A stretch of 64,000 bases of DNA from an uncultured Rhizobiaceae bacterium (lineage in GTDB: Bacteria; Pseudomonadota; Alphaproteobacteria; SMXQ01). Positions 36,587 through 55,742 of this stretch are shown here, one piece after another; position 1 is the first letter of the stretch, and every line of letters starts with the position of its first letter. The stretch spans positions 490-64,489 of the forward strand of contig CAZOBN010000003.1 in NCBI GenBank assembly GCA_964577835.1, written 5' to 3'. The notes beneath the pieces were generated by a model that saw only the letters and a list, made by a program, of their open reading frames with translations, ran no database searches and was not told the origin of the DNA. The translations under genes and the position numbers were made by a program.

Positions 36587-36763
36587 GAGCGCCGAGCTCA
36601 GTCGCTAGGGCGTTTTCCGCCGAAGTGGAAACCGGTTCGGCGTAGAAAACGCGATTAAATCAAGACTCGAGAGCATGATCCGATTCCACTGAAACGGATC
36701 ATGCTCTAGGGCATCTGACTTTTAATCAGAGGGTCCCGGGTTCGAATCCCGGCGCGCTCACCA
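36587..36763 (+). pseudogene. tRNA-Lys(UUU) gene interrupted in the D-loop by a MITE
   Basis: 5' piece 36587..36608: GAGCGCC GA GCTC AGTCGCTA G. 3' piece 36710..36763: GGC A TCTGA CTTTTAA TCAGA GGGTC CCGGG TTCGAAT CCCGG CGCGCTC A CCA. The two pieces join to a 76-nt cloverleaf. Confidence 0.7.
36605..36709 (-). mobile_element. 105-bp CTAG-bounded double-hairpin MITE, copy B (inverted relative to A and C)
   Basis: Its reverse complement is essentially identical to copy C (one C/T difference seen near the end). Confidence 0.85.
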
Positions 36764-46533: not shown

Positions 46534-47943
46534 TCAGCCCGGCAGCCGCAGGGTGAAGATAACCGCGCCGACAGCCGCGCTGACGGCCAGCACCGTCAGC
46601 ATGCGGATATGGAAAACCAGCATGGCGACGATCGCCGCAGCCGAGAGCGCGAGCGCGAAAGGATCGAGCGTCGCCCACGCCGGCCAGTGCAGCTTGAGAC
46701 CGTGGGTCTCGATCGTGTCGACCCGGGCGAACAGCACGTGCAGCGCGAACCATACGGTCAGGTTCAGCATGACGCCGACCACGGCGGCGGTGATGGTGGT
46801 CAGCGCCGCCGCCAGCGCGTTGTTGCCGCGCAGGGCCTCGATATAGGGCGCGCCGAGGAAGATCCACAGGAAGCAGGGCACGAAGGTGACCCAGGTGGTG
46901 AGCGCAGCGCCGAGCACGCCCGCCATCATCGGGTCGAGCGTGCCCGGGTTGCGGAAAGCGCCCATGAAACCGACGAACTGCAGCACCAGGATGAGCGGCC
47001 CGGGCGTGGTCTCGGCGAGACCCAAGCCGTCGAGCATTTCGCCCGGCTGCAGCCAGCCGTGGGTGTTCACCGCCTCCTGCGCCACATAGGCGAGCACGGC
47101 ATAGGCGCCGCCGAAGGTGACCACCGCCATTTTGCTGAAGAACAGGCCCTCGGCGACATAGATGCTGTTCCAACCGGCCCAAACCGCGACGGCGGAAATC
47201 GGCGCGAACCACAACACCAGGCAGATCCCCAGCACGCGCATGGCGCGCCCCAGACTGGGGCGGGTGTGGTCGAGCGTGCCGTCGGCGAGCGCCGCGTCGA
47301 GCGCGGGCGTAGCCTCCGTCTTGCCGCCGTGGCTCTGGGCGAGGCCGAAGACACGCGGCCAAAGCCGGCCGCCGACCAGGCCGACGAGCGCGGCGCCGAG
47401 CACGATGATGGGAAAATCCACGTCGAAGGCGAAGATGCCGAGGAAGGCCGCGGCGGCGATGAGATACATCCAGACGTTCTTCAGCGCGCGTCTGCTGATC
47501 CGCAACAGCGCCTCGACCACGACCGCGAGCACGGCAGCCTTCACGCCGAAGAAAATCGCCTGGACCAGGGTGAGGTCATGGAAGCCGGCATAGAGAATGC
47601 TCAAGCCCAGAATGACCAGCGCGCCCGGCACCACGAACAGGATGCCGGCGGCCAGGCCGCCCGCCGTGCGATGCAGCAGCCAGCCGATATAGGTGGCGAG
47701 TTGCTGCGCCTCGGGACCCGGCAGCAGCATGCAATAGTTGAGCGCATGGAGAAAGCGGCTCTCGCCGATCCAGCGCTTCTCGTCGACCAGGATGCGGTGC
47801 ATGAGGGCGATCTGCCCGGCCGGACCGCCGAAGCTCAGCAGGCCGATCTTGAGCCAGACGCGAAAGGCCTCCGCGAAGCTGACGCCATGACCTTGCGCCT
47901 GGGCGGTTTCGTTCGCGGCTGCGGCGCCCAGGTTCTCTGGCAT
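46534..47943 (-). CDS. chrA: Chromate transporter ChrA (two CHR domains)
   Basis: Start at MPENLGAAAANE (ATG 47943). GLLSFGGPAGQIALMH in the first half and VVTFGGAYAVLAYV in the second. Confidence 0.85.
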   Translation of the reverse strand: MPENLGAAAANETAQAQGHGVSFAEAFRVWLKIGLLSFGGPAGQIALMHRILVDEKRWIGESRFLHALNYCMLLPGPEAQQLATYIGWLLHRTAGGLAAGILFVVPGALVILGLSILYAGFHDLTLVQAIFFGVKAAVLAVVVEALLRISRRALKNVWMYLIAAAAFLGIFAFDVDFPIIVLGAALVGLVGGRLWPRVFGLAQSHGGKTEATPALDAALADGTLDHTRPSLGRAMRVLGICLVLWFAPISAVAVWAGWNSIYVAEGLFFSKMAVVTFGGAYAVLAYVAQEAVNTHGWLQPGEMLDGLGLAETTPGPLILVLQFVGFMGAFRNPGTLDPMMAGVLGAALTTWVTFVPCFLWIFLGAPYIEALRGNNALAAALTTITAAVVGVMLNLTVWFALHVLFARVDTIETHGLKLHWPAWATLDPFALALSAAAIVAMLVFHIRMLTVLAVSAAVGAVIFTLRLPG

Positions 47944-48210
47944 GGCTTCAACCCGCTTGATGGCGACGCGATGAAAAGACCGGTGAACCGGCAAGCGCCG
48001 GGACCAAGCCGATCGCGCGTGTTGCAAATGGAGCGACAAGCCGCAAGGCACCCTCCCCTATGAACGAGGCAAGGGCAGCGCTTGGACAGGGCGTCTTGGG
48101 ATACCGGGCGTCTGCCGAGCCCGACGAAGCAATCTACAAGTTGACCTCGACAATGCCAAGGCCAATACAACTATGATATTTTCCCGAAGTGACCGTCGAC
48201 GGTGATCGCC

Positions 48211-49449
48211 TCAGTTTCGCTGACTGTTCCGCGCAACTCTCTCCGCATTATGCTGGATGCTGTCACTGATCAGGCGCAAACTTTCACCGTTAACCTGAAA
48301 TCTGTTACTCAATTCGGTGGCGATTCGTTGTGCTCCCGATGAAACAGCCTCAGCAATTTGATTGACTCGGCGGGGTGTTGCAGAAGGTGACAATCCAACA
48401 CTGGACGCGAAGCGTTCCCAATGACGCTTATGCAAGTGTTCAGCGCGGCTCTTATCAGCGATCTTCATCGCAAGGTTTCGAGTGATGTTCTGATATATGA
48501 GCGCGGTCATGAGATCGTATGCCGGGGCCAATCGAGGTCCGTCATCGGTCAGCATGAGGGAGTAGTTTTTGCCATGGCGGTCGGTATCGCCTATGCAACA
48601 TGAAAAAACGATAAGATCCAAAAGGTGGAGTCGATCACGAGCACGCTGTTTCGAGTGCTCGTCAATGACGCTGAATAAATTTGCGAACCCCGGCCATCCT
48701 CCCGACTCATGTTTATTCGTTGGATAGATAGAGAGGGCCTGACAGAAGTCTTCTTGATGATCCCTGTGCACCTTCCTATCGGCAGATAAGTGCCGATCAT
48801 AGCGCTCCACGAGCAGATATTTTTTGTCTAAGGCGGTCGCCATTGTCGTAGAAGCTGTCGGCAAACCAACATGCGCCGCTAAATGCATGCAGAAAAGCTC
48901 ATTCTCTACCGTGGCATGGAGACGGTCACTCGCCGGTTTTAGTATATGTGTGGATGCGGCGCCGTTGAGGGGCAGCAGGATGTTGCCATCGAAAACTGCG
49001 ACGGTCAGTTTCGACTGAGCGCCTGCCAGAGACATGGTTACGCCTCCCTCGCCAATCAGCAAGGGGCGGTCGGGAAGTTGAGCTATGGCTTGCGCGAGTT
49101 GAACGTCGTCCAGTTTGCGATATTGAGCATCATTGGTTGATTCAGAGGCACCAATAGATAGCGCGCCAGCGGTTTCACGACCGATTTTCTCAAGGAGGCC
49201 GTAGACGTCCCCCTGGCTGCGTCCCAGAAGGCGTCCAATCACCTCCAACTGCCGTTCCTCGGGTAAGAGGTTTGCAAACCAGGGGGTTGCGACTGAGTTC
49301 TCGAACTCTCCCTCGCGCAGTGGCATGCTGACGGATATTGCAAAGGAGTTCTTTTGACTCAACCATTCCGGCGAGTAAGCAAATGTGAGGCCAACTTTGT
49401 CTCGCGTGATATGGCCGACAAGTTGGTCTTCATAGAAGACAGGCAGCAT
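48211..49449 (-). CDS. hipA: HipA-family serine/threonine kinase toxin
   Basis: 412 aa. Couple_hipA-like N-terminus (MLPVFYEDQLVGHI...), P-loop-like MSLAGAQSKLTV, catalytic GDTDRHGKNYSLM and LAPAYDLM. Visibly lower G+C than the flanks. Confidence 0.85.
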   Translation of the reverse strand: MLPVFYEDQLVGHITRDKVGLTFAYSPEWLSQKNSFAISVSMPLREGEFENSVATPWFANLLPEERQLEVIGRLLGRSQGDVYGLLEKIGRETAGALSIGASESTNDAQYRKLDDVQLAQAIAQLPDRPLLIGEGGVTMSLAGAQSKLTVAVFDGNILLPLNGAASTHILKPASDRLHATVENELFCMHLAAHVGLPTASTTMATALDKKYLLVERYDRHLSADRKVHRDHQEDFCQALSIYPTNKHESGGWPGFANLFSVIDEHSKQRARDRLHLLDLIVFSCCIGDTDRHGKNYSLMLTDDGPRLAPAYDLMTALIYQNITRNLAMKIADKSRAEHLHKRHWERFASSVGLSPSATPRRVNQIAEAVSSGAQRIATELSNRFQVNGESLRLISDSIQHNAERVARNSQRN

Positions 49450-49451
49450 TT

Positions 49452-49661
49452 CTATGGCCTATCAGTCAGGCCGATATACAGACCGAGCGAGGTCGCCACC
49501 CGAAAAGCCAACCCCAGACGGACTGTTTCCTTACCGGCTTCCAAATCGACGATGAAGCGCTCTCCGGTGCCTACCGAGAGGGCCAATTCCTTCTGGGTCA
49601 ATCCAGCTCTGCGCCGAGCCTCTCGGACAGACGACCCAAAATCTCGCGCGTCTTTTATCAT
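49452..49661 (-). CDS. hipB: HipB-like XRE-family HTH antitoxin
   Basis: MIKDARDFGSSVREARRRAGLTQKELALSVGTGERFIVDLEAGKETVRL. Start moved from ORF start 49751 to ATG 49661 because the promoter and operators occupy 49678..49793. The stop lies 2 nt before the hipA ATG. Confidence 0.75.
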   Translation of the reverse strand: MIKDARDFGSSVREARRRAGLTQKELALSVGTGERFIVDLEAGKETVRLGLAFRVATSLGLYIGLTDRP

Positions 49662-49677
49662 CCTAGCCAACCTCAAT

Positions 49678-49793
49678 CTTACTGATCGGTAAGATATAAG
49701 ATTGGAATGGCTACTTGCAAGGTTAAACTTACCGATCGGGTTGTTCTCCATTAAACGGGCGTTAAAAAAGCCAAATTCTTACCGTTCGGTAAG
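49678..49793. promoter_or_regulatory. Three 16-bp palindromic operator candidates (CTTACCGWWCGGTAAG) at exactly 50-bp spacing
   Basis: 49678 CTTACTGATCGGTAAG; 49728 CTTACCGATCGGGTTG; 49778 CTTACCGTTCGGTAAG. Confidence 0.6.
49691..49720 (-). promoter_or_regulatory. Candidate sigma70 promoter of hipBA
   Basis: On the minus strand: TTGCAA (49720..49715), 18 nt, TATCTT (49696..49691). The -10 overlaps operator 1. Confidence 0.45.
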
Positions 49794-49809
49794 ATGCGCG
49801 GACACGTGC

Positions 49810-49848
49810 AAAAATGAAACCCCGCCCGGGCAGAAGCCGCGGCGGGGT
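49810..49848 (-). terminator. Intrinsic terminator (minus strand)
   Basis: On the minus strand: CCCCGCC-gcggcttctgcccg-GGCGGGG followed by TTTCATTTTT. Confidence 0.75.
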
Positions 49849-50240
49849 TCCGATTTTGGTGGGGTCTAACCCCCGACCCGTCCGAAACGGATCATATGAC
49901 GGGCGTCAATGCCCGGTCTTCAGGTCTTACGTATGTCTGGCAGCCCGCGATCCGGTACCCCCCATGGCGGGACTAGAAAGCGGACTGTGGCTTCCGGTAT
50001 GTGGGCGGAAGCCAACGTAACTGGCTGGGTGGATCTTCCATGCGTGACGCACCCTCCTGACTGTTGACACGGTGTCGGCCGCTTGCCGGCCATCGAAGGC
50101 ACCGATGAAAGGGCCTGGTCCCGTCGGATGACAAGCCGGCGCGCCTTGCTCCAGGAAGGCGCCGGCTCAGCGCGTCCCGGTTAGTACCGGCGAAGGGTTG
50201 TTGGCAAACCCGCGCGCTTTCATCGGCATGTGCCGACATG
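49810..50240 (-). ncRNA. Candidate ~430-nt structured non-coding RNA, family unassigned
   Basis: No credible ORF; the frames are Arg-rich and third-position G+C is not elevated. The unit is bracketed by a promoter-like element and an intrinsic terminator. Many perfect helices are present, for example 50102-50111/50217-50226, 50135-50166, 49989-50013, 50177-50190 and 50195-50211. Confidence 0.4.
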
Positions 50241-50244
50241 AAGA

Positions 50245-50273
50245 AGCCTAGGACTCACATTTTCGTGTTTCAA
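50245..50273 (-). promoter_or_regulatory. Candidate sigma70 promoter for the structured RNA
   Basis: On the minus strand: TTGAAA (50273..50268), 17 nt, TAGGCT (50250..50245). An AT-rich tract (AATTTAATTATGATATATGTCAATT) lies just upstream. Confidence 0.3.
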
Positions 50274-50521
50274 GCAGTAAAGTGACGTCAAATTGACATA
50301 TATCATAATTAAATTGCGTCGCTCCGCTTGGCTTGGCCGGCACTCGCCTGAACCCCCTGAGTCAAATGTGGGACAGGCCCATACCATCGTACAGCGCCCA
50401 TTGTCCGCCGCCTCGCATGCCGATAAATAGGGCAGTGCCGGATGCCAAGTGCAACGGAGCAAGGTTTCCGGCGTTTAGTATCGTTTGGTATCGTTCGAGA
50501 ACTCAATCATAAGGGGCCCCC

Positions 50522-50935
50522 ATGCTGAAATCCCGCAAGTTCTGCCGTGCCGTCGTCGCTGCCGTGACCGCCGGCCTGTTCGTCACCTCGATGCCGATGC
50601 CGCGCGCCCAGGCGGCGCTCGTCACCAGCGAAGAGCTCGTCACCCAGCGGTCGGTCGCCGCCGACCGCGCCCGCATCAACGAGCTGATGGCCCGCGAGGA
50701 CGTTCAGCGCGAGCTGAAGACCTATGGCATCTCGCCGGACGAAGCCCAGGCGCGCGTCAACAGCCTGACCGACGAGGAAGTCATGCAGGTCGCCGGCCGG
50801 CTCGACCAAATGCCGGCAGGCCAGGGCGCGCTCGGCGTCATCATCGGCGCCGCGCTGATTATCTTCATCGTCCTGCTGATCACCGACATCGCGGGTCTGA
50901 CCAAGGTCTTCCCCTGGACGCGTAGCGTGCGTTAA
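50522..50935 (+). CDS. PA2779-family small membrane-anchored protein
   Basis: Signal peptide MLKSRKFCRAVVAAVTAGLFVTSMPMPRAQA, helical middle (DRARINELMAREDVQRELKTYGISPDEAQARVNSLTDEEV) and a C-terminal TM segment (ALGVIIGAALIIFIVLLI). Confidence 0.7.
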   Translation: MLKSRKFCRAVVAAVTAGLFVTSMPMPRAQAALVTSEELVTQRSVAADRARINELMAREDVQRELKTYGISPDEAQARVNSLTDEEVMQVAGRLDQMPAGQGALGVIIGAALIIFIVLLITDIAGLTKVFPWTRSVR

Positions 50936-54072: not shown

Positions 54073-55497
<1,425 letters not shown>

Positions 55498-55742
55498 TGT
55501 TCTTTCACTATTCGCGGCCCTGCGCGCGAACAGGACGGCCCTTTGTATTAAAGGGGAATTCTCGGGATGGAGGGCATCGCAAATTTTGGGAGAAATGCGG
55601 ACGCGCTTCGCGCGATCACGAGAGGGAAGCCTTGGCAAAGCCATCGGCCTCGACGGGATAGATGCGCCCTTGAGATGCTAAAGTCAAGGAATCATATGCA
55701 GAATGCATTAACCAGCCGTTAGGACTTCGGCGCAATCGCCGG

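What the first reader, a model, noticed from the sequence alone, without database searches (positions are those of the whole stretch)
49810..50273. Orphan ~430-nt, densely structured transcription unit with promoter and terminator but no ORF, abutting the hipBA islet
**No coding signal.** The 770-bp gap between hipB and the PA2779 gene has no credible ORF. All frames are Arg-rich, and third-position G+C is not elevated as it is in real genes here.

**Transcription signals on the minus strand.**
- An AT-rich tract followed by TTGAAA-N17-TAGGCT (50273..50245).
- About 430 nt further on, a textbook intrinsic terminator (CCCCGCC...GGCGGGG + TTTCATTTTT, 49848..49810), which stops just before the hipB operators.

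**Perfect helices in between.**
- CCGAUGAAAG / CUUUCAUCGG (50226-50217 with 50111-50102)
- AGCGCG / CGCGCU, enclosing two 5-bp hairpins (50195-50211 and 50177-50190)
- a 13-bp bulged hairpin at 50135-50166
- GGCUUCCG / CGGAAGCC at 49989-50013
- others at 50070-50104 and 49875-49907

**Possible switch.** The CCGAUGAA segment can pair either with an upstream partner (CUUCAUGUCGGCA) or with the downstream one, so two mutually exclusive folds exist.

**tmRNA-like traits, but no family match.** Some pieces recall tmRNA or a tRNA-like domain:
- UUUCGGACGGG
- GGGG-UUAGA-CCCC-ACCA immediately before the terminator
- a GCC AAC AAC ... frame

Against that, I find no canonical acceptor stem with a G-U pair, no TPsiC loop and no RNase P P4 motif (GGAAAGUCCGGGC).

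**Context.** A low-G+C islet sits directly 3' of this unit, which is the classic arrangement for islands inserted at tRNA or tmRNA genes. It may be a divergent or decayed tmRNA-like gene, a leader or attenuator feeding hipBA, or a new RNA class.
Basis: partly seen in the sequence, partly recalled or inferred. Interest (0 to 1): 0.72.

Follow-up and report, generated by a model that had tools for sequence, protein, structure and literature searches.

The report
Unclassified 430-nt structured RNA gene
This stretch is a real, conserved, heavily folded RNA gene of about 430 bases with its own promoter and terminator, found so far only in uncultured soil Alphaproteobacteria; it matches no known RNA family, is not a tmRNA or a hipBA leader, and its job is still unknown.

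Summary
Window 50238..49810 (minus strand) is a non-coding transcription unit. It has a conserved sigma-70-type promoter (TTGAAA-N17-TAGGCT), about 19 helices and a conserved intrinsic terminator.

I recovered 17 full-length and 6 partial homologues from one MAG and from metagenomes. They show compensatory base changes: 17 pairs changed on both sides against 6.8±1.8 in shuffles. They show no codon periodicity, and most indels break the reading frame. Sequence identity is well above that of neighbouring four-fold degenerate sites.

Rfam 15 (gathering and permissive scans) and ARAGORN find no family. The tmRNA-like details (ACCA, GCC-AAC-AAC) are not conserved. hipBA is a recent 1.6-kb insertion that most relatives lack, so the RNA is not its leader.

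The conserved neighbour is downstream: the chrB-b motif and the chromate transporter chrA, which have their own promoter.

An invariant central hairpin locks a GGAGG and an AUG. A mini-ORF (MEDPPS...) starts there, but its length varies from 8 to 35 codons.

Best reading: a stand-alone structured RNA of a new, narrowly distributed family. Its mechanism is inferred only.

The parts
50245..50273 (-). Promoter of the RNA: -35 TTGAAA (50273..50268), 17-nt spacer, -10 TAGGCT (50250..50245). The inferred start is near 50238.
   Evidence: The -35 TTG and the -10 TA are invariant in 11 homologues while the spacer varies. Sequence conservation of the RNA begins 7-9 nt after the -10. The start site is inferred, not mapped.
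49810..50238 (-). The whole predicted RNA, about 429 nt.
   Evidence: nhmmer and CM homologues cover exactly this span. MFE z-score is -4.9. Covariation is shown. The strand is supported by 96.4% standard pairs on minus against 90.4% on plus.
50074..50237 (-). 5' multi-helix domain closed by the long-range helix P1 (GUCGGC 50237..50232 with GCCGAC 50079..50074). It contains:
- P2 (50218..50212 / 50175..50169) with hairpins P2a (50211-50194) and P2b (50190-50177)
- P3
- P4 (50128-50119)
- P5 (50115-50098)
   Evidence: Consensus fold and per-pair counts are. P1 and P2 each carry pairs changed on both sides. The loops of P2a and P2b vary while their stems are kept.
50134..50167 (-). P3: long hairpin AGCCGGCGC...GCGCCGGCU. 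Its apical CCUGGAGCAAGG carries the invariant motif CCUGG.GC.AG.
   Evidence: Four of nine pairs changed on both sides in the main clade. The stem is rewritten as GGUGACGC/GCGUCAUC in the L111/L105 clade. A possible pseudoknot of CCUGG with the invariant CCAGG (50118..50114) is listed. It cannot be tested because both sides never vary.
50024..50058 (-). Invariant core, hairpin P7 (50057..50028). The AGGAGG (50058..50053) and the AUG (50041..50039) are both base-paired. The 3' strand AUCCACC resembles an anti-Shine-Dalgarno sequence.
   Evidence: The motif GGAGG.UGCGUC..GCAUGGA..AUCCACC is present in all 23 family members. Only loop or unpaired positions vary, and a G-U becomes A-U in L098/L099.
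49973..50041 (-). Mini-ORF from the invariant AUG (MEDPPSQLRWLPPTYRKPQSAF, 22 codons in the window). It is doubtful as a gene.
   Evidence: Its length is 8, 13, 22, 25-26 or 34-35 codons in different members, and only MEDPPS is kept. Where hairpin P8 covaries, the peptide changes from LPP to SAQ.
49989..50013 (-). P8 hairpin GGCUUCCG / CGGAAGCC.
   Evidence: All 8 pairs show changes on both sides across the two clades in the CM alignment. Three of 8 do so in the main clade alone.
49941..49987 (-). P9: CAGUCCGC...GCGGGCUG with the inner hairpin CCC/GGG (49971-49958).
   Evidence: U-G alternates with U-A. The inner 3-bp helix covaries at all three pairs. A shorter P9 is kept in the L111 clade.
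49861..49914 (-). Three 3' hairpins:
- P10 GGGC/GCCC (49914-49901)
- P11 GAUCCGUU/GACGGGUC (49893-49875)
- P12 GGGG/CCCC (49874-49861)
   Evidence: P12 changes to GCGG/CCGC, and P10 is rebuilt with compensating changes, in L111/L105.
49810..49851 (-). Intrinsic terminator: 14-bp G+C-rich stem (49851..49837 with 49829..49816) and U-tract UUUCAUUUUU (49819..49810).
   Evidence: It is conserved in every full-length homologue, with two pairs changed on both sides. The terminator scan lists the inner part.
48131..48159 (-). Context, not part of the RNA: separate promoter of the chrB-b/chrA unit, TTGGCA (48159..48154), N17, TAGATT (48136..48131).
   Evidence: The same TTGGCA-N17-TAG.TT lies between the RNA terminator and chrB-b in most relatives (weaker -35 in L095 and L106). 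My A7 range cut off the window's own -35, which I read directly from the sequence.
48075..48124 (-). Context: chrB-b RNA motif (RF03086) in the leader of chrA (46534..48051).
   Evidence: Rfam gathering-level hit of 44.9 bits. The same motif lies 50-110 nt after the RNA terminator in 8 relatives, and is cut by the contig end in L112.
48165..49800 (-). Context: hipBA islet (hipB 49452..49661, hipA 48211..49449, two 19-nt palindromic operators). It is inserted between the RNA terminator and the chrA promoter. The boundaries are approximate.
   Evidence: L008 goes from the terminator to chrB-b in about 55 nt where the window has about 1.69 kb. G+C is 0.49-0.56 against 0.62-0.71 in the flanks. Only the window, its own metagenome copies and L107 carry it.

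Best explanation
This is an independent gene for a structured non-coding RNA of about 430 nt. It belongs to a family not yet described.

**Shown**
- It is transcribed on the minus strand from its own sigma-70-type promoter.
- It ends at a strong intrinsic terminator.
- It folds into three parts: a 5' multi-helix domain closed by a long-range helix; an invariant central hairpin (P7) that pairs a Shine-Dalgarno-like GGAGG and an AUG against an anti-SD-like AUCCACC strand; and a string of covarying hairpins.
- It is non-coding, on this strand, under purifying selection, and independent of hipBA.

**Inferred**
- It acts as a free-standing RNA rather than as an mRNA leader.
- Its invariant elements (P7, the CCUGG/CCAGG pair, the UUUCAUC loop) form a fixed tertiary core or a binding surface for a protein or the 30S subunit.
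- Its function is tied to the chromate-resistance unit (chrB-b motif and chrA) that follows it in both clades.
For: **Homologues**
- 17 full-length and 6 partial homologues were found by synteny and by a core-motif scan.

**Structure**
- MFE z-score -4.9.
- 17 pairs changed on both sides against 6.8±1.8 in shuffles, 0/500; slid controls give 1-7.
- In the CM alignment of the central domain, 13 pairs against 4.6±1.4, and every pair of P8 covaries.
- Further compensating changes occur between L111 and L105.

**Non-coding**
- No codon periodicity (p=0.76, against 1.6e-8 in the neighbouring CDS).
- 36 of 41 indels break the frame.
- No Pfam hit.

**Selection**
- RNA identity is 74-91%. Four-fold degenerate sites of the adjacent genes, in the same genome pairs, are 60-85% identical.

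**Own transcription signals**
- Invariant -35 TTG and -10 TA, and a conserved terminator.
- A separate conserved promoter for chrB-b/chrA lies after the terminator.

**Strand**
- 78 G-U cells would be A-C on the other strand.

**Independence from hipBA and from DUF6627**
- hipBA is absent in most relatives.
- The L111/L105 clade has cspA-infA-arsC upstream instead of DUF6627, yet still has chrA downstream.

**Survival without chrA in cis**
- L088 and L089 have lost chrB-b and chrA but keep the RNA intact.

**No known family**
-.
Against: - No expression data exist. The start site and the RNA ends are inferred from sequence only.
- Nothing shows a trans target or a binding partner.
- The steady position upstream of chrB-b/chrA, on the same strand, would also fit a cis role.
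- The invariant GGAGG plus AUG could be a real translation start.
- All members come from closely related uncultured genomes. Some conservation and synteny may therefore be simple inheritance.
- The shuffle control does not correct for relatedness.
- The family looks rare, with 8 loci in the JGI metagenome scan. That scan needed 20 exact bases, so it gives a lower bound.
Confidence: 0.55

Rival explanations
1. It is a long cis-acting leader, a riboswitch-like sensor, of the chromate-resistance unit. The 5' domain senses a signal and the terminator is conditional, so read-through feeds chrB-b and chrA.
For: - The RNA is co-oriented with, and directly upstream of, chrB-b and/or chrA in 11 of 13 loci with downstream sequence. 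This includes the divergent L111 clade, whose upstream neighbour differs.
- P1 closes an aptamer-like multi-helix junction with invariant loops.
- The P12 5' strand (CGGGG) can pair with the terminator 5' strand (CCCCG) in the window and its main-clade relatives; I noted a weaker GCGG/CCGC version in the L111 clade by eye. That would be a weak anti-terminator.
- chrB-b is itself an orphan chromate-related candidate sensor (PMC5737381).
Against: - A conserved promoter (TTGGCA-N17-TAG.TT) lies between the terminator and chrB-b, so chrA has its own start.
- The terminator has 14 G+C-rich pairs. The only alternative pairing has 5-6 bp and no covariation.
- The RNA is kept intact where chrB-b and chrA are deleted (L088, L089), and where 1.6 kb of hipBA separates them.
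- The gene after the terminator varies: DUF1080-like, DUF3750, DUF488 or hipB.
Confidence: 0.15
2. It is a dual-function RNA, or a regulated small-ORF transcript. The GGAGG and the AUG at 50041 start translation of a short peptide (MEDPPS...). P7 and the 5' domain gate ribosome access, and the DPP motif could stall ribosomes.
For: - GGAGG and AUG are invariant in all 23 members, with fixed 11-nt spacing.
- The first six codons keep their meaning. Variation at CCC/CCG/CCU and AGC/AGU is silent.
- The layout is that of a translational riboswitch: a domain closed by P1, then a hairpin that sequesters the SD.
Against: - ORF length varies from 8 to 35 codons, and only seven residues are kept.
- Every varying position is an unpaired or loop position of P7, so RNA structure alone explains the pattern.
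- Compensating changes in P8 alter the peptide non-conservatively, LPP to SAQ.
- No periodicity across the region.
- The 11-nt SD-AUG spacing is long, and both elements are base-paired.
Confidence: 0.18
3. It is a divergent or decayed tmRNA or tRNA-like gene that served as the integration site for the hipBA islet.
For: - Its size is similar to that of tmRNA.
- A short internal frame and a GGGG...CCCC-ACCA ending occur in the window.
- A low-G+C islet abuts its 3' end.
Against: - ARAGORN finds no tmRNA or tRNA.
- No tmRNA, alpha_tmRNA or tRNA hit in the region at E<=10, in the window or in seven relatives.
- ACCA is not conserved, and the hairpin before it has no T-loop.
- The 'GCC AAC AAC' frame is a variable hairpin loop.
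- The RNA ends in an intrinsic terminator, not a processed CCA end.
- The islet has no integrase.
- The RNA is under purifying selection, so it is not decaying.
Confidence: 0.01
4. It is the remnant of a protein-coding gene, a pseudogene, or an unannotated gene. Public gene callers do sometimes call ORFs of 120-210 aa across it.
For: - One frame (…GGCV.HGRSTQ…) is open for 43-212 codons in various members.
- Six such products sit in the protein collection as hypothetical proteins.
Against: - The open stretch differs in extent and in upstream frame between members.
- 36 of 41 indels break the frame, and there is no codon periodicity.
- No Pfam hit.
- Only 6 such products exist among 5.8 billion clusters.
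- Stems covary.
Confidence: 0.02

Closest known systems
Large orphan structured bacterial RNAs (OLE, GOLLD, ROOL, raiA; Rfam families; cryo-EM in PMC12286853)
   Same: - Several hundred nucleotides long.
- Many covarying helices interspersed with invariant nucleotides.
- No coding capacity.
- Found by comparative analysis, with function not evident from sequence.
   Different: - No sequence or structure match to any of them.
- Much narrower distribution: one uncultured alphaproteobacterial lineage.
- Smaller than OLE, ROOL and GOLLD.
- It has a plain promoter and terminator and a fixed chromosomal position, and is not phage- or element-borne (0 hits in viral contigs; no plasmid hit).
Dual-function sRNAs such as Staphylococcus RNAIII (hld) or SgrS (sgrT) (my own knowledge)
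   Same: - A stand-alone, terminator-ended, multi-hairpin RNA.
- An internal Shine-Dalgarno sequence and AUG that could direct a short peptide.
   Different: - The ORF is not conserved in length or sequence beyond 7 codons.
- No homology.
- No known target.
Translational riboswitches and SD-sequestering thermometers (my own knowledge)
   Same: - A junction domain closed by P1, followed by a hairpin in which GGAGG and AUG are paired to an anti-SD-like strand.
   Different: - No conserved downstream gene is attached to that start codon.
- 230 more nucleotides of conserved hairpins and a terminator follow.
- No Rfam aptamer matches.
tmRNA, including the two-piece alphaproteobacterial form
   Same: - Similar length.
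- A highly structured, independent gene.
   Different: - No tRNA-like domain.
- No conserved CCA end.
- No tag frame.
- Not detected by ARAGORN or Rfam.
chrB-b RNA motif (RF03086; Weinberg et al. 2017, PMC5737381)
   Same: - Same locus and strand, and the same narrow alphaproteobacterial setting next to chromate-resistance genes.
- The 8-mer GGAGGGUG occurs only twice in the 64-kb window: in the RNA core and at the ribosome-binding site of chrA, downstream of chrB-b. About 1.9 occurrences are expected by chance.
   Different: - chrB-b is a 49-nt leader element downstream of a separate promoter.
- The RNA studied here is a different, roughly nine-fold larger unit that ends in its own terminator before that promoter.

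Membership tests
tmRNA (one-piece or permuted two-piece) | tRNA-like domain: acceptor stem with a G-U pair, a T-arm with a T-loop, and a 3' CCA end | tested here: not met
   ARAGORN finds no gene in the window. The GGGG-loop-CCCC hairpin has a variable 4-8-nt loop without UUCRA, and the following ACCA is not conserved.
tmRNA (one-piece or permuted two-piece) | Conserved tag reading frame with a resume codon | tested here: not met
   'GCC AAC AAC' lies in the variable loop of hairpin P2a and is absent in relatives. No tmRNA model hit at E<=10.
Bacterial RNase P RNA (type A) | P4 helix with conserved regions CR-I (GGAAAGUCCGGGC) and CR-V (ACAGAA...GGCUUA), and a match to RF00010 | tested here: not met
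   No RNase P hit in permissive scans of the window region or of seven relatives. Short look-alikes such as GAAGACCGGGC and GGAGCAAGG occur in the wrong order. That comparison is by eye and from my own knowledge.
Any Rfam 15 family | Score at or above the family's gathering threshold | tested here: not met
   The window at gathering level gives only chrB-b and a tRNA fragment, both elsewhere. 16 relatives give only chrB-b. Permissive scans give only sub-threshold terminator look-alikes: ctRNA_pGA1 20.9 against 45 bits, ar14, isrJ and rnk leader.
hipBA leader or attenuator | Constant association with, and co-transcription into, hipBA | tested here: not met
   Among distinct homologues (L001-L007 are fragments of the window's own sequence), only the window and L107 carry hipBA. 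L008, L088, L092-L095, L102, L106 and L111 do not. A conserved terminator precedes the hipB operators.
Stand-alone bacterial ncRNA gene | Own promoter and own terminator, both conserved | tested here: met
   Invariant -35 TTG and -10 TA with a 17-nt spacer, and a terminator kept in all full-length homologues. Transcription itself cannot be tested here.
Stand-alone bacterial ncRNA gene | Conserved secondary structure with compensatory changes, and no coding signal | tested here: met
   covariation; no periodicity, frame-breaking indels; no Pfam; more conserved than four-fold sites.
Stand-alone bacterial ncRNA gene | A discrete transcript of the predicted size | not testable with these tools
   No expression data are on hand. 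All carriers are uncultured: the best named relatives of the RhlE helicase are MAGs at about 65-70% identity.
Riboswitch or cis-leader of chrB-b/chrA | Same transcript as the regulated gene, with mutually exclusive terminator and anti-terminator folds | tested here: inconclusive
   For: constant position upstream of chrB-b/chrA. Against: an intervening conserved promoter, only a 5-6-bp invariant alternative pairing, and survival of the RNA after loss of chrA.
Protein-coding gene or small-protein gene | A conserved open reading frame with a codon-position substitution pattern | tested here: not met
   No periodicity. Long frames are not conserved. The mini-ORF keeps only MEDPPS and varies from 8 to 35 codons.

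The most novel reading that the evidence does not exclude
This is a new class of large, ornate bacterial RNA, about 430 nt here and possibly about 530 nt in a sister clade. Its invariant core is an intramolecular Shine-Dalgarno/anti-Shine-Dalgarno-like hairpin. It works as a free-standing sensor or as a ribosome- or protein-binding regulator of the chromate/oxyanion-resistance locus, in effect the missing partner of the orphan chrB-b riboswitch candidate.
Probability: 0.25. Interest if true: 0.8.

Novelty: categorically new. Interest (0 to 1): 0.62.

Why it matters
- **Rarity of the type.** Few bacterial RNAs above 400 nt have a dozen or more covarying helices and no assigned family. Each one characterised so far (OLE, GOLLD, ROOL, raiA) has opened unexpected biology.
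- **Ready to test.** This one has clean, testable anatomy: its own promoter, a junction closed by P1, an invariant hairpin that hides a GGAGG and an AUG, and a terminator.
- **Link to an open question.** Its fixed neighbour, the chrB-b motif, is a candidate chromate-related sensor whose ligand was never found (PMC5737381). The RNA may bear on that question.
- **Annotation.** Six 'hypothetical proteins' in public collections are translations of this RNA. The hipBA module beside it is an unrelated recent insertion.
- **Limit.** The family is so far confined to one uncultured soil lineage, which limits both its reach and the chance of a quick experiment.

Tried and rejected
**Database and tool searches that found nothing**
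- Rfam at gathering and at E<=10, on the window and on relatives. Only terminator look-alikes below threshold came up.
- ARAGORN: nothing.
- blastn against plasmids: nothing.
- Core motif in viral contigs: nothing.
- Full-text search for the core sequence, for PA2779/DUF6627 and for chromate-linked RNA motifs in recent discovery papers: nothing relevant.

**Searches for more distant members**
- The 80 GTDB loci around more distant DUF6627/C39 operons carry no copy, by nhmmer or by a covariance model of the central domain.
- I searched the protein collection with the spurious translation of the RNA to find more members. Only 6 came up.
- L108 and L109 match the 24-nt core pattern but nothing else, in low-G+C DNA. 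I treated them as chance.

**Analyses that failed or were dropped**
- RNAduplex between the RNA and the chrB-b leader gave meaningless whole-length duplexes. By eye I saw no conserved complementarity.
- A scan for alternative or pseudoknot helices gave only invariant or G-U-rich candidates that cannot be tested by covariation: CCUGG/CCAGG, UUCAU/AUGGA, the P3 3' strand with P7, and P12 with the terminator.

**Ideas considered and rejected**
- A decayed chrB gene. Rejected because of covariation, the lack of any Pfam hit and the lack of periodicity.
- My own first reading, that hipBA had replaced the -35 of the chrA promoter. This was wrong: the alignment range had cut the -35 off, and the promoter is intact at 48131-48159.
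Full report
**1. What is in the window**

- An AT-rich tract.
- TTGAAA (50273..50268), 17 nt, then TAGGCT (50250..50245).
- About 430 nt of G+C-rich sequence.
- A long G+C-rich stem followed by UUUCAUUUUU (49819..49810).
- Then the two palindromic operators and the start of hipB.

The region folds far better than shuffled sequence: -208 kcal/mol, z = -4.9, and 0 of 100 shuffles fold as well. ORFs over it are short and arginine-rich. None hits Pfam.

**2. Known families**

- Rfam 15 at gathering thresholds finds two things in the 64 kb, both elsewhere: a chrB-b motif at 48075-48124 and a tRNA fragment at 36703-36752.
- A permissive scan of 49600-50560 at E<=10 gives only sub-threshold matches to the last hairpins and terminator: ctRNA_pGA1, ar14, isrJ and rnk leader.
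- The same holds for seven relatives.
- ARAGORN finds no tRNA or tmRNA.
- There is no match in plasmids or viral contigs.

**3. Relatives**

How I found them:
- The exact neighbour proteins occur only on short metagenome contigs.
- A scan of one genome per GTDB species with the adjacent C39-type peptidase gave a single close relative, L008. It is an uncultured alphaproteobacterial MAG at 90% protein identity. The remaining hits were distant.
- L008 carries the RNA region at 89% identity.
- A graded series of DUF6627 homologues (93-63% identity) led to their contigs. These gave L088/L089, L092, L093/L094, L095/L096, L098/L099, L101 and L102/L103, all with the element. L104 (63%) lacks it.
- A metagenome scan with the invariant core TGCGTCNNGCATGGANNATCCACC added L106, L107, L110 and L112. 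It also added a divergent clade, L111 and L105.
- Searching the protein collection with the spurious translation of the RNA gave six 'hypothetical proteins'. Two of them led to L113 and L114.

In total there are 17 full-length and 6 partial copies.

The carriers have no close cultured relative. The best named hits of the window's RhlE helicase are Alphaproteobacteria, Stellaceae and Rhodospirillales MAGs at about 65-70% identity.

**4. It is an RNA, on the minus strand, and under selection**

*Covariation.* The consensus fold of 11 homologues has 106 pairs in 19 helices, and 96.4% of cells are paired. Seventeen pairs changed on both sides, against 6.8±1.8 in shuffles (0/500). Slid controls give 1-7.

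*Central domain.* A covariance model of this domain aligns both clades. Thirteen of 29 pairs changed on both sides, against 4.6±1.4 in shuffles, and all eight pairs of P8 covary.

*Sister clade.* L111 and L105 add their own compensating changes in P8 and P10. Compared with the main clade, they rewrite P3 (GGUGACGC/GCGUCAUC) and P12 (GCGG/CCGC).

*No coding signal.* Variable columns show no 3-nt periodicity (p=0.76), while the neighbouring DUF6627 CDS gives p=1.6e-8. Of 41 distinct indels, 36 are not multiples of three.

*Selection.* RNA identity to the window is 74-91%. Four-fold degenerate sites of the adjacent genes in the same genome pairs are 60-85% identical.

*Strand.* The given strand has 96.4% standard pairs and the opposite strand 90.4%. 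The difference comes from 78 G-U cells.

*Transcription signals.* The -35 TTG and the -10 TA are invariant while the spacer drifts, and conservation of the RNA begins 7-9 nt after the -10. The terminator is kept in every full-length copy.

**5. Anatomy in window coordinates**

| Element | Coordinates | Notes |
|---|---|---|
| P1 | 50237-50232 / 50079-50074 | closes the 5' domain |
| P2 | 50218-50212 / 50175-50169 | contains P2a (50211-50194) and P2b (50190-50177) |
| P3 | 50167-50134 | apex CCUGGAGCAAGG |
| P4 | 50128-50119 | |
| P5 | 50115-50098 | loop UUUCAUC |
| P7 | 50057-50028 | invariant; AGGAGG (50058-50053) and AUG (50041-50039) are paired against AUCCACC |
| P8 | 50013-49989 | |
| P9 | 49987-49941 | |
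| P10 | 49914-49901 | |
| P11 | 49893-49875 | |
| P12 | 49874-49861 | |
| Terminator | 49851-49810 | |

A variable linker follows P5, between the 5' domain and P7.

In P7 only loop or unpaired positions vary, and a G-U becomes A-U in L098/L099.

Candidate tertiary pairings exist: CCUGG with CCAGG, the P5 loop with the AUG region, and the P3 3' strand with P7. Both sides of each are invariant or G-U-rich, so covariation cannot test them.

**6.

- *tmRNA-like.* The ACCA after P12 is not conserved, and the hairpin has no T-loop. 'GCC AAC AAC' is the variable loop of P2a. No tool detects a tmRNA. Refuted.
- *hipBA leader.* L008 runs from the terminator to chrB-b in about 55 nt, where the window has about 1.69 kb carrying hipBA. 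The islet has 49-56% G+C against 62-71% around it. Of all homologues, only L107 shares it. Refuted.
- *The CCGAUGAA switch.* The 10-bp helix is present in the window, but L008 already has two mismatches in it. It is not part of the consensus. Not supported.
- *New RNA class.* Supported.

**7. Context and what it suggests**

*Main clade.* The order of genes is:
1. DUF6627 and the C39 peptidase, transcribed divergently.
2. The RNA and its terminator.
3. A second promoter, TTGGCA-N17-TAG.TT.
4. The chrB-b motif.
5. Sometimes a DUF1080-like gene.
6. chrA.
7. DUF488.

The window keeps the second promoter at 48159-48131.

*L111/L105 clade.* The upstream neighbour is cspA-infA-arsC instead. Downstream, DUF3750 and then chrA still follow on the same strand.

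*Where chrA is missing.* L088 and L089 have lost chrB-b and chrA. L008 has lost chrA but keeps chrB-b. All three keep the RNA.

*What this means.* The stable link is to the chromate-resistance unit, not to DUF6627 or hipBA. The RNA nevertheless has its own terminator, a promoter separates it from chrA, and it survives without chrA beside it.

*The chrB-b motif.* It is an orphan candidate sensor in alphaproteobacterial chromate loci (PMC5737381).

*A shared 8-mer.* GGAGGGUG occurs twice in the window, in P7 and at the chrA ribosome-binding site. About 1.9 occurrences are expected by chance, so this is only a lead.

**8. The mini-ORF**

From the invariant AUG the frame reads MEDPPS(Q/H/Y/D). It then runs for 8 codons in the L111 clade, and for 13, 22, 25-26 or 34-35 codons elsewhere.

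Silent-looking changes (CCC/CCG/CCU, AGC/AGU) fall exactly on positions that are unpaired in the P7 model. The covarying stem P8 changes the peptide from LPP to SAQ. RNA-level constraint is therefore enough to explain the pattern. Translation cannot be excluded.

**9. Verdict**

- Shown: a real, conserved, non-coding, highly structured RNA gene of a family absent from Rfam 15, unrelated to tmRNA and to hipBA.
- Inferred: it acts as a free-standing RNA whose invariant core is a tertiary or binding module, and its function is linked to the chromate locus.
- Rivals still open: a conditional leader of chrB-b/chrA, and a regulated mini-ORF transcript.
- Limits: there are no expression data. All members are close relatives from uncultured soil bacteria. 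The public-collection scans were exact-pattern or synteny based, so the true range is unknown.

Noticed in passing
window 48165-49800 (approximate): hipBA is a low-G+C (0.49-0.56) insertion of about 1.6 kb between the RNA terminator and the chrA promoter. It has no integrase or flanking repeats that I could see. Apart from the window's own metagenome copies, only L107 shares it. Two 19-nt palindromes, TCTTACYGWTCGGTAAGAT, lie 100 nt apart at 49677-49695 and 49777-49795 and look like HipB operators.
   Followed up: partly
window 48075-48124 and 48131-48159 (minus strand): A chrB-b motif (RF03086, 44.9 bits) sits in the leader of chrA (46534-48051), preceded by a conserved TTGGCA-N17-TAGATT promoter. 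A stretch of the leader, starting inside the motif's 3' end (CCCUUGCCUC), can pair with the GGGGAGGG ribosome-binding site. That would make it an SD-sequestering arrangement.
   Followed up: partly
window 50050-50057 and 48049-48056 (minus strand): The 8-mer GGAGGGTG occurs only twice in 64 kb: once in the invariant core of the RNA and once at the chrA ribosome-binding site. About 1.9 occurrences are expected by chance, so it is not significant on its own, but both sites are conserved in relatives.
   Followed up: partly
window 36672-36763 (plus strand): This is the 3' two-thirds of a tRNA: an anticodon arm with UUU (Lys), a T-arm GGGTTCGAATCCC, and an acceptor 3' strand plus CCA. Rfam gives 31.5 bits for model positions 10-63, and ARAGORN does not call it. 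A perfect 17-bp inverted repeat (GAGAGCATGATCCGATT...) lies directly before it. It may be the attachment-site remnant of an integrated element.
   Followed up: no
L008 1969-2735; L092 85-1386; L088 2222-2297: The chromate transporter is unstable in this lineage. In L008 it is replaced by a DUF1080-like gene. In L092 it is broken into fragments of 49-57% identity. In L088 and L089 it is deleted together with chrB-b, leaving the RNA next to DUF488.
   Followed up: partly
L111 1251-1800; L105 312-885: The sister clade of the RNA has an extra conserved stretch of about 90 nt at the 5' end with two more hairpins, an inserted hairpin inside P2, a deletion of the linker after P5, and a hairpin inserted in the terminator loop. 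If the AT-rich TTATTT-N17-TAATAT upstream is its promoter, the RNA would be about 530 nt. It lies divergent from cspA-infA-arsC.
   Followed up: partly
P0121-P0126 (for example L088 2247-2870, L113 584-1072, L114 115-555): Public gene calls of 146-207 aa annotated as hypothetical proteins are translations of this RNA in one open frame (…GGCV.HGRSTQ…). P0126 fuses the start of a Bug/TctC-like binding protein to the RNA on a 556-nt contig.
   Followed up: partly
L108 317-343; L109 1110-1135: Two nearly identical low-G+C metagenome contigs carry the 24-nt core pattern (ATGCGTCAAGCATGGAAAATCCACC) with no other similarity to the RNA. I treated this as a chance match. About 2 are expected for 20 fixed bases in a collection of that size, by my own rough estimate.
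   Followed up: partly
window 50274-50521: The spacer between the divergent promoters and the DUF6627 start codon is about 85% identical to L008 apart from two indels. A GTGACG-N16-CATAAT promoter-like site at 50282-50309 would give the DUF6627 mRNA a 5' UTR of about 200 nt, which I did not examine for structure.
   Followed up: no
window 54073-55644; L105 1127-1818: Genes for RNA-remodelling or cold-shock-type proteins lie near the RNA in both contexts. A RhlE-type DEAD-box helicase is 4 kb away in the main clade, and CspA and IF-1 are directly adjacent in the sister clade. This may be coincidence.
   Followed up: no
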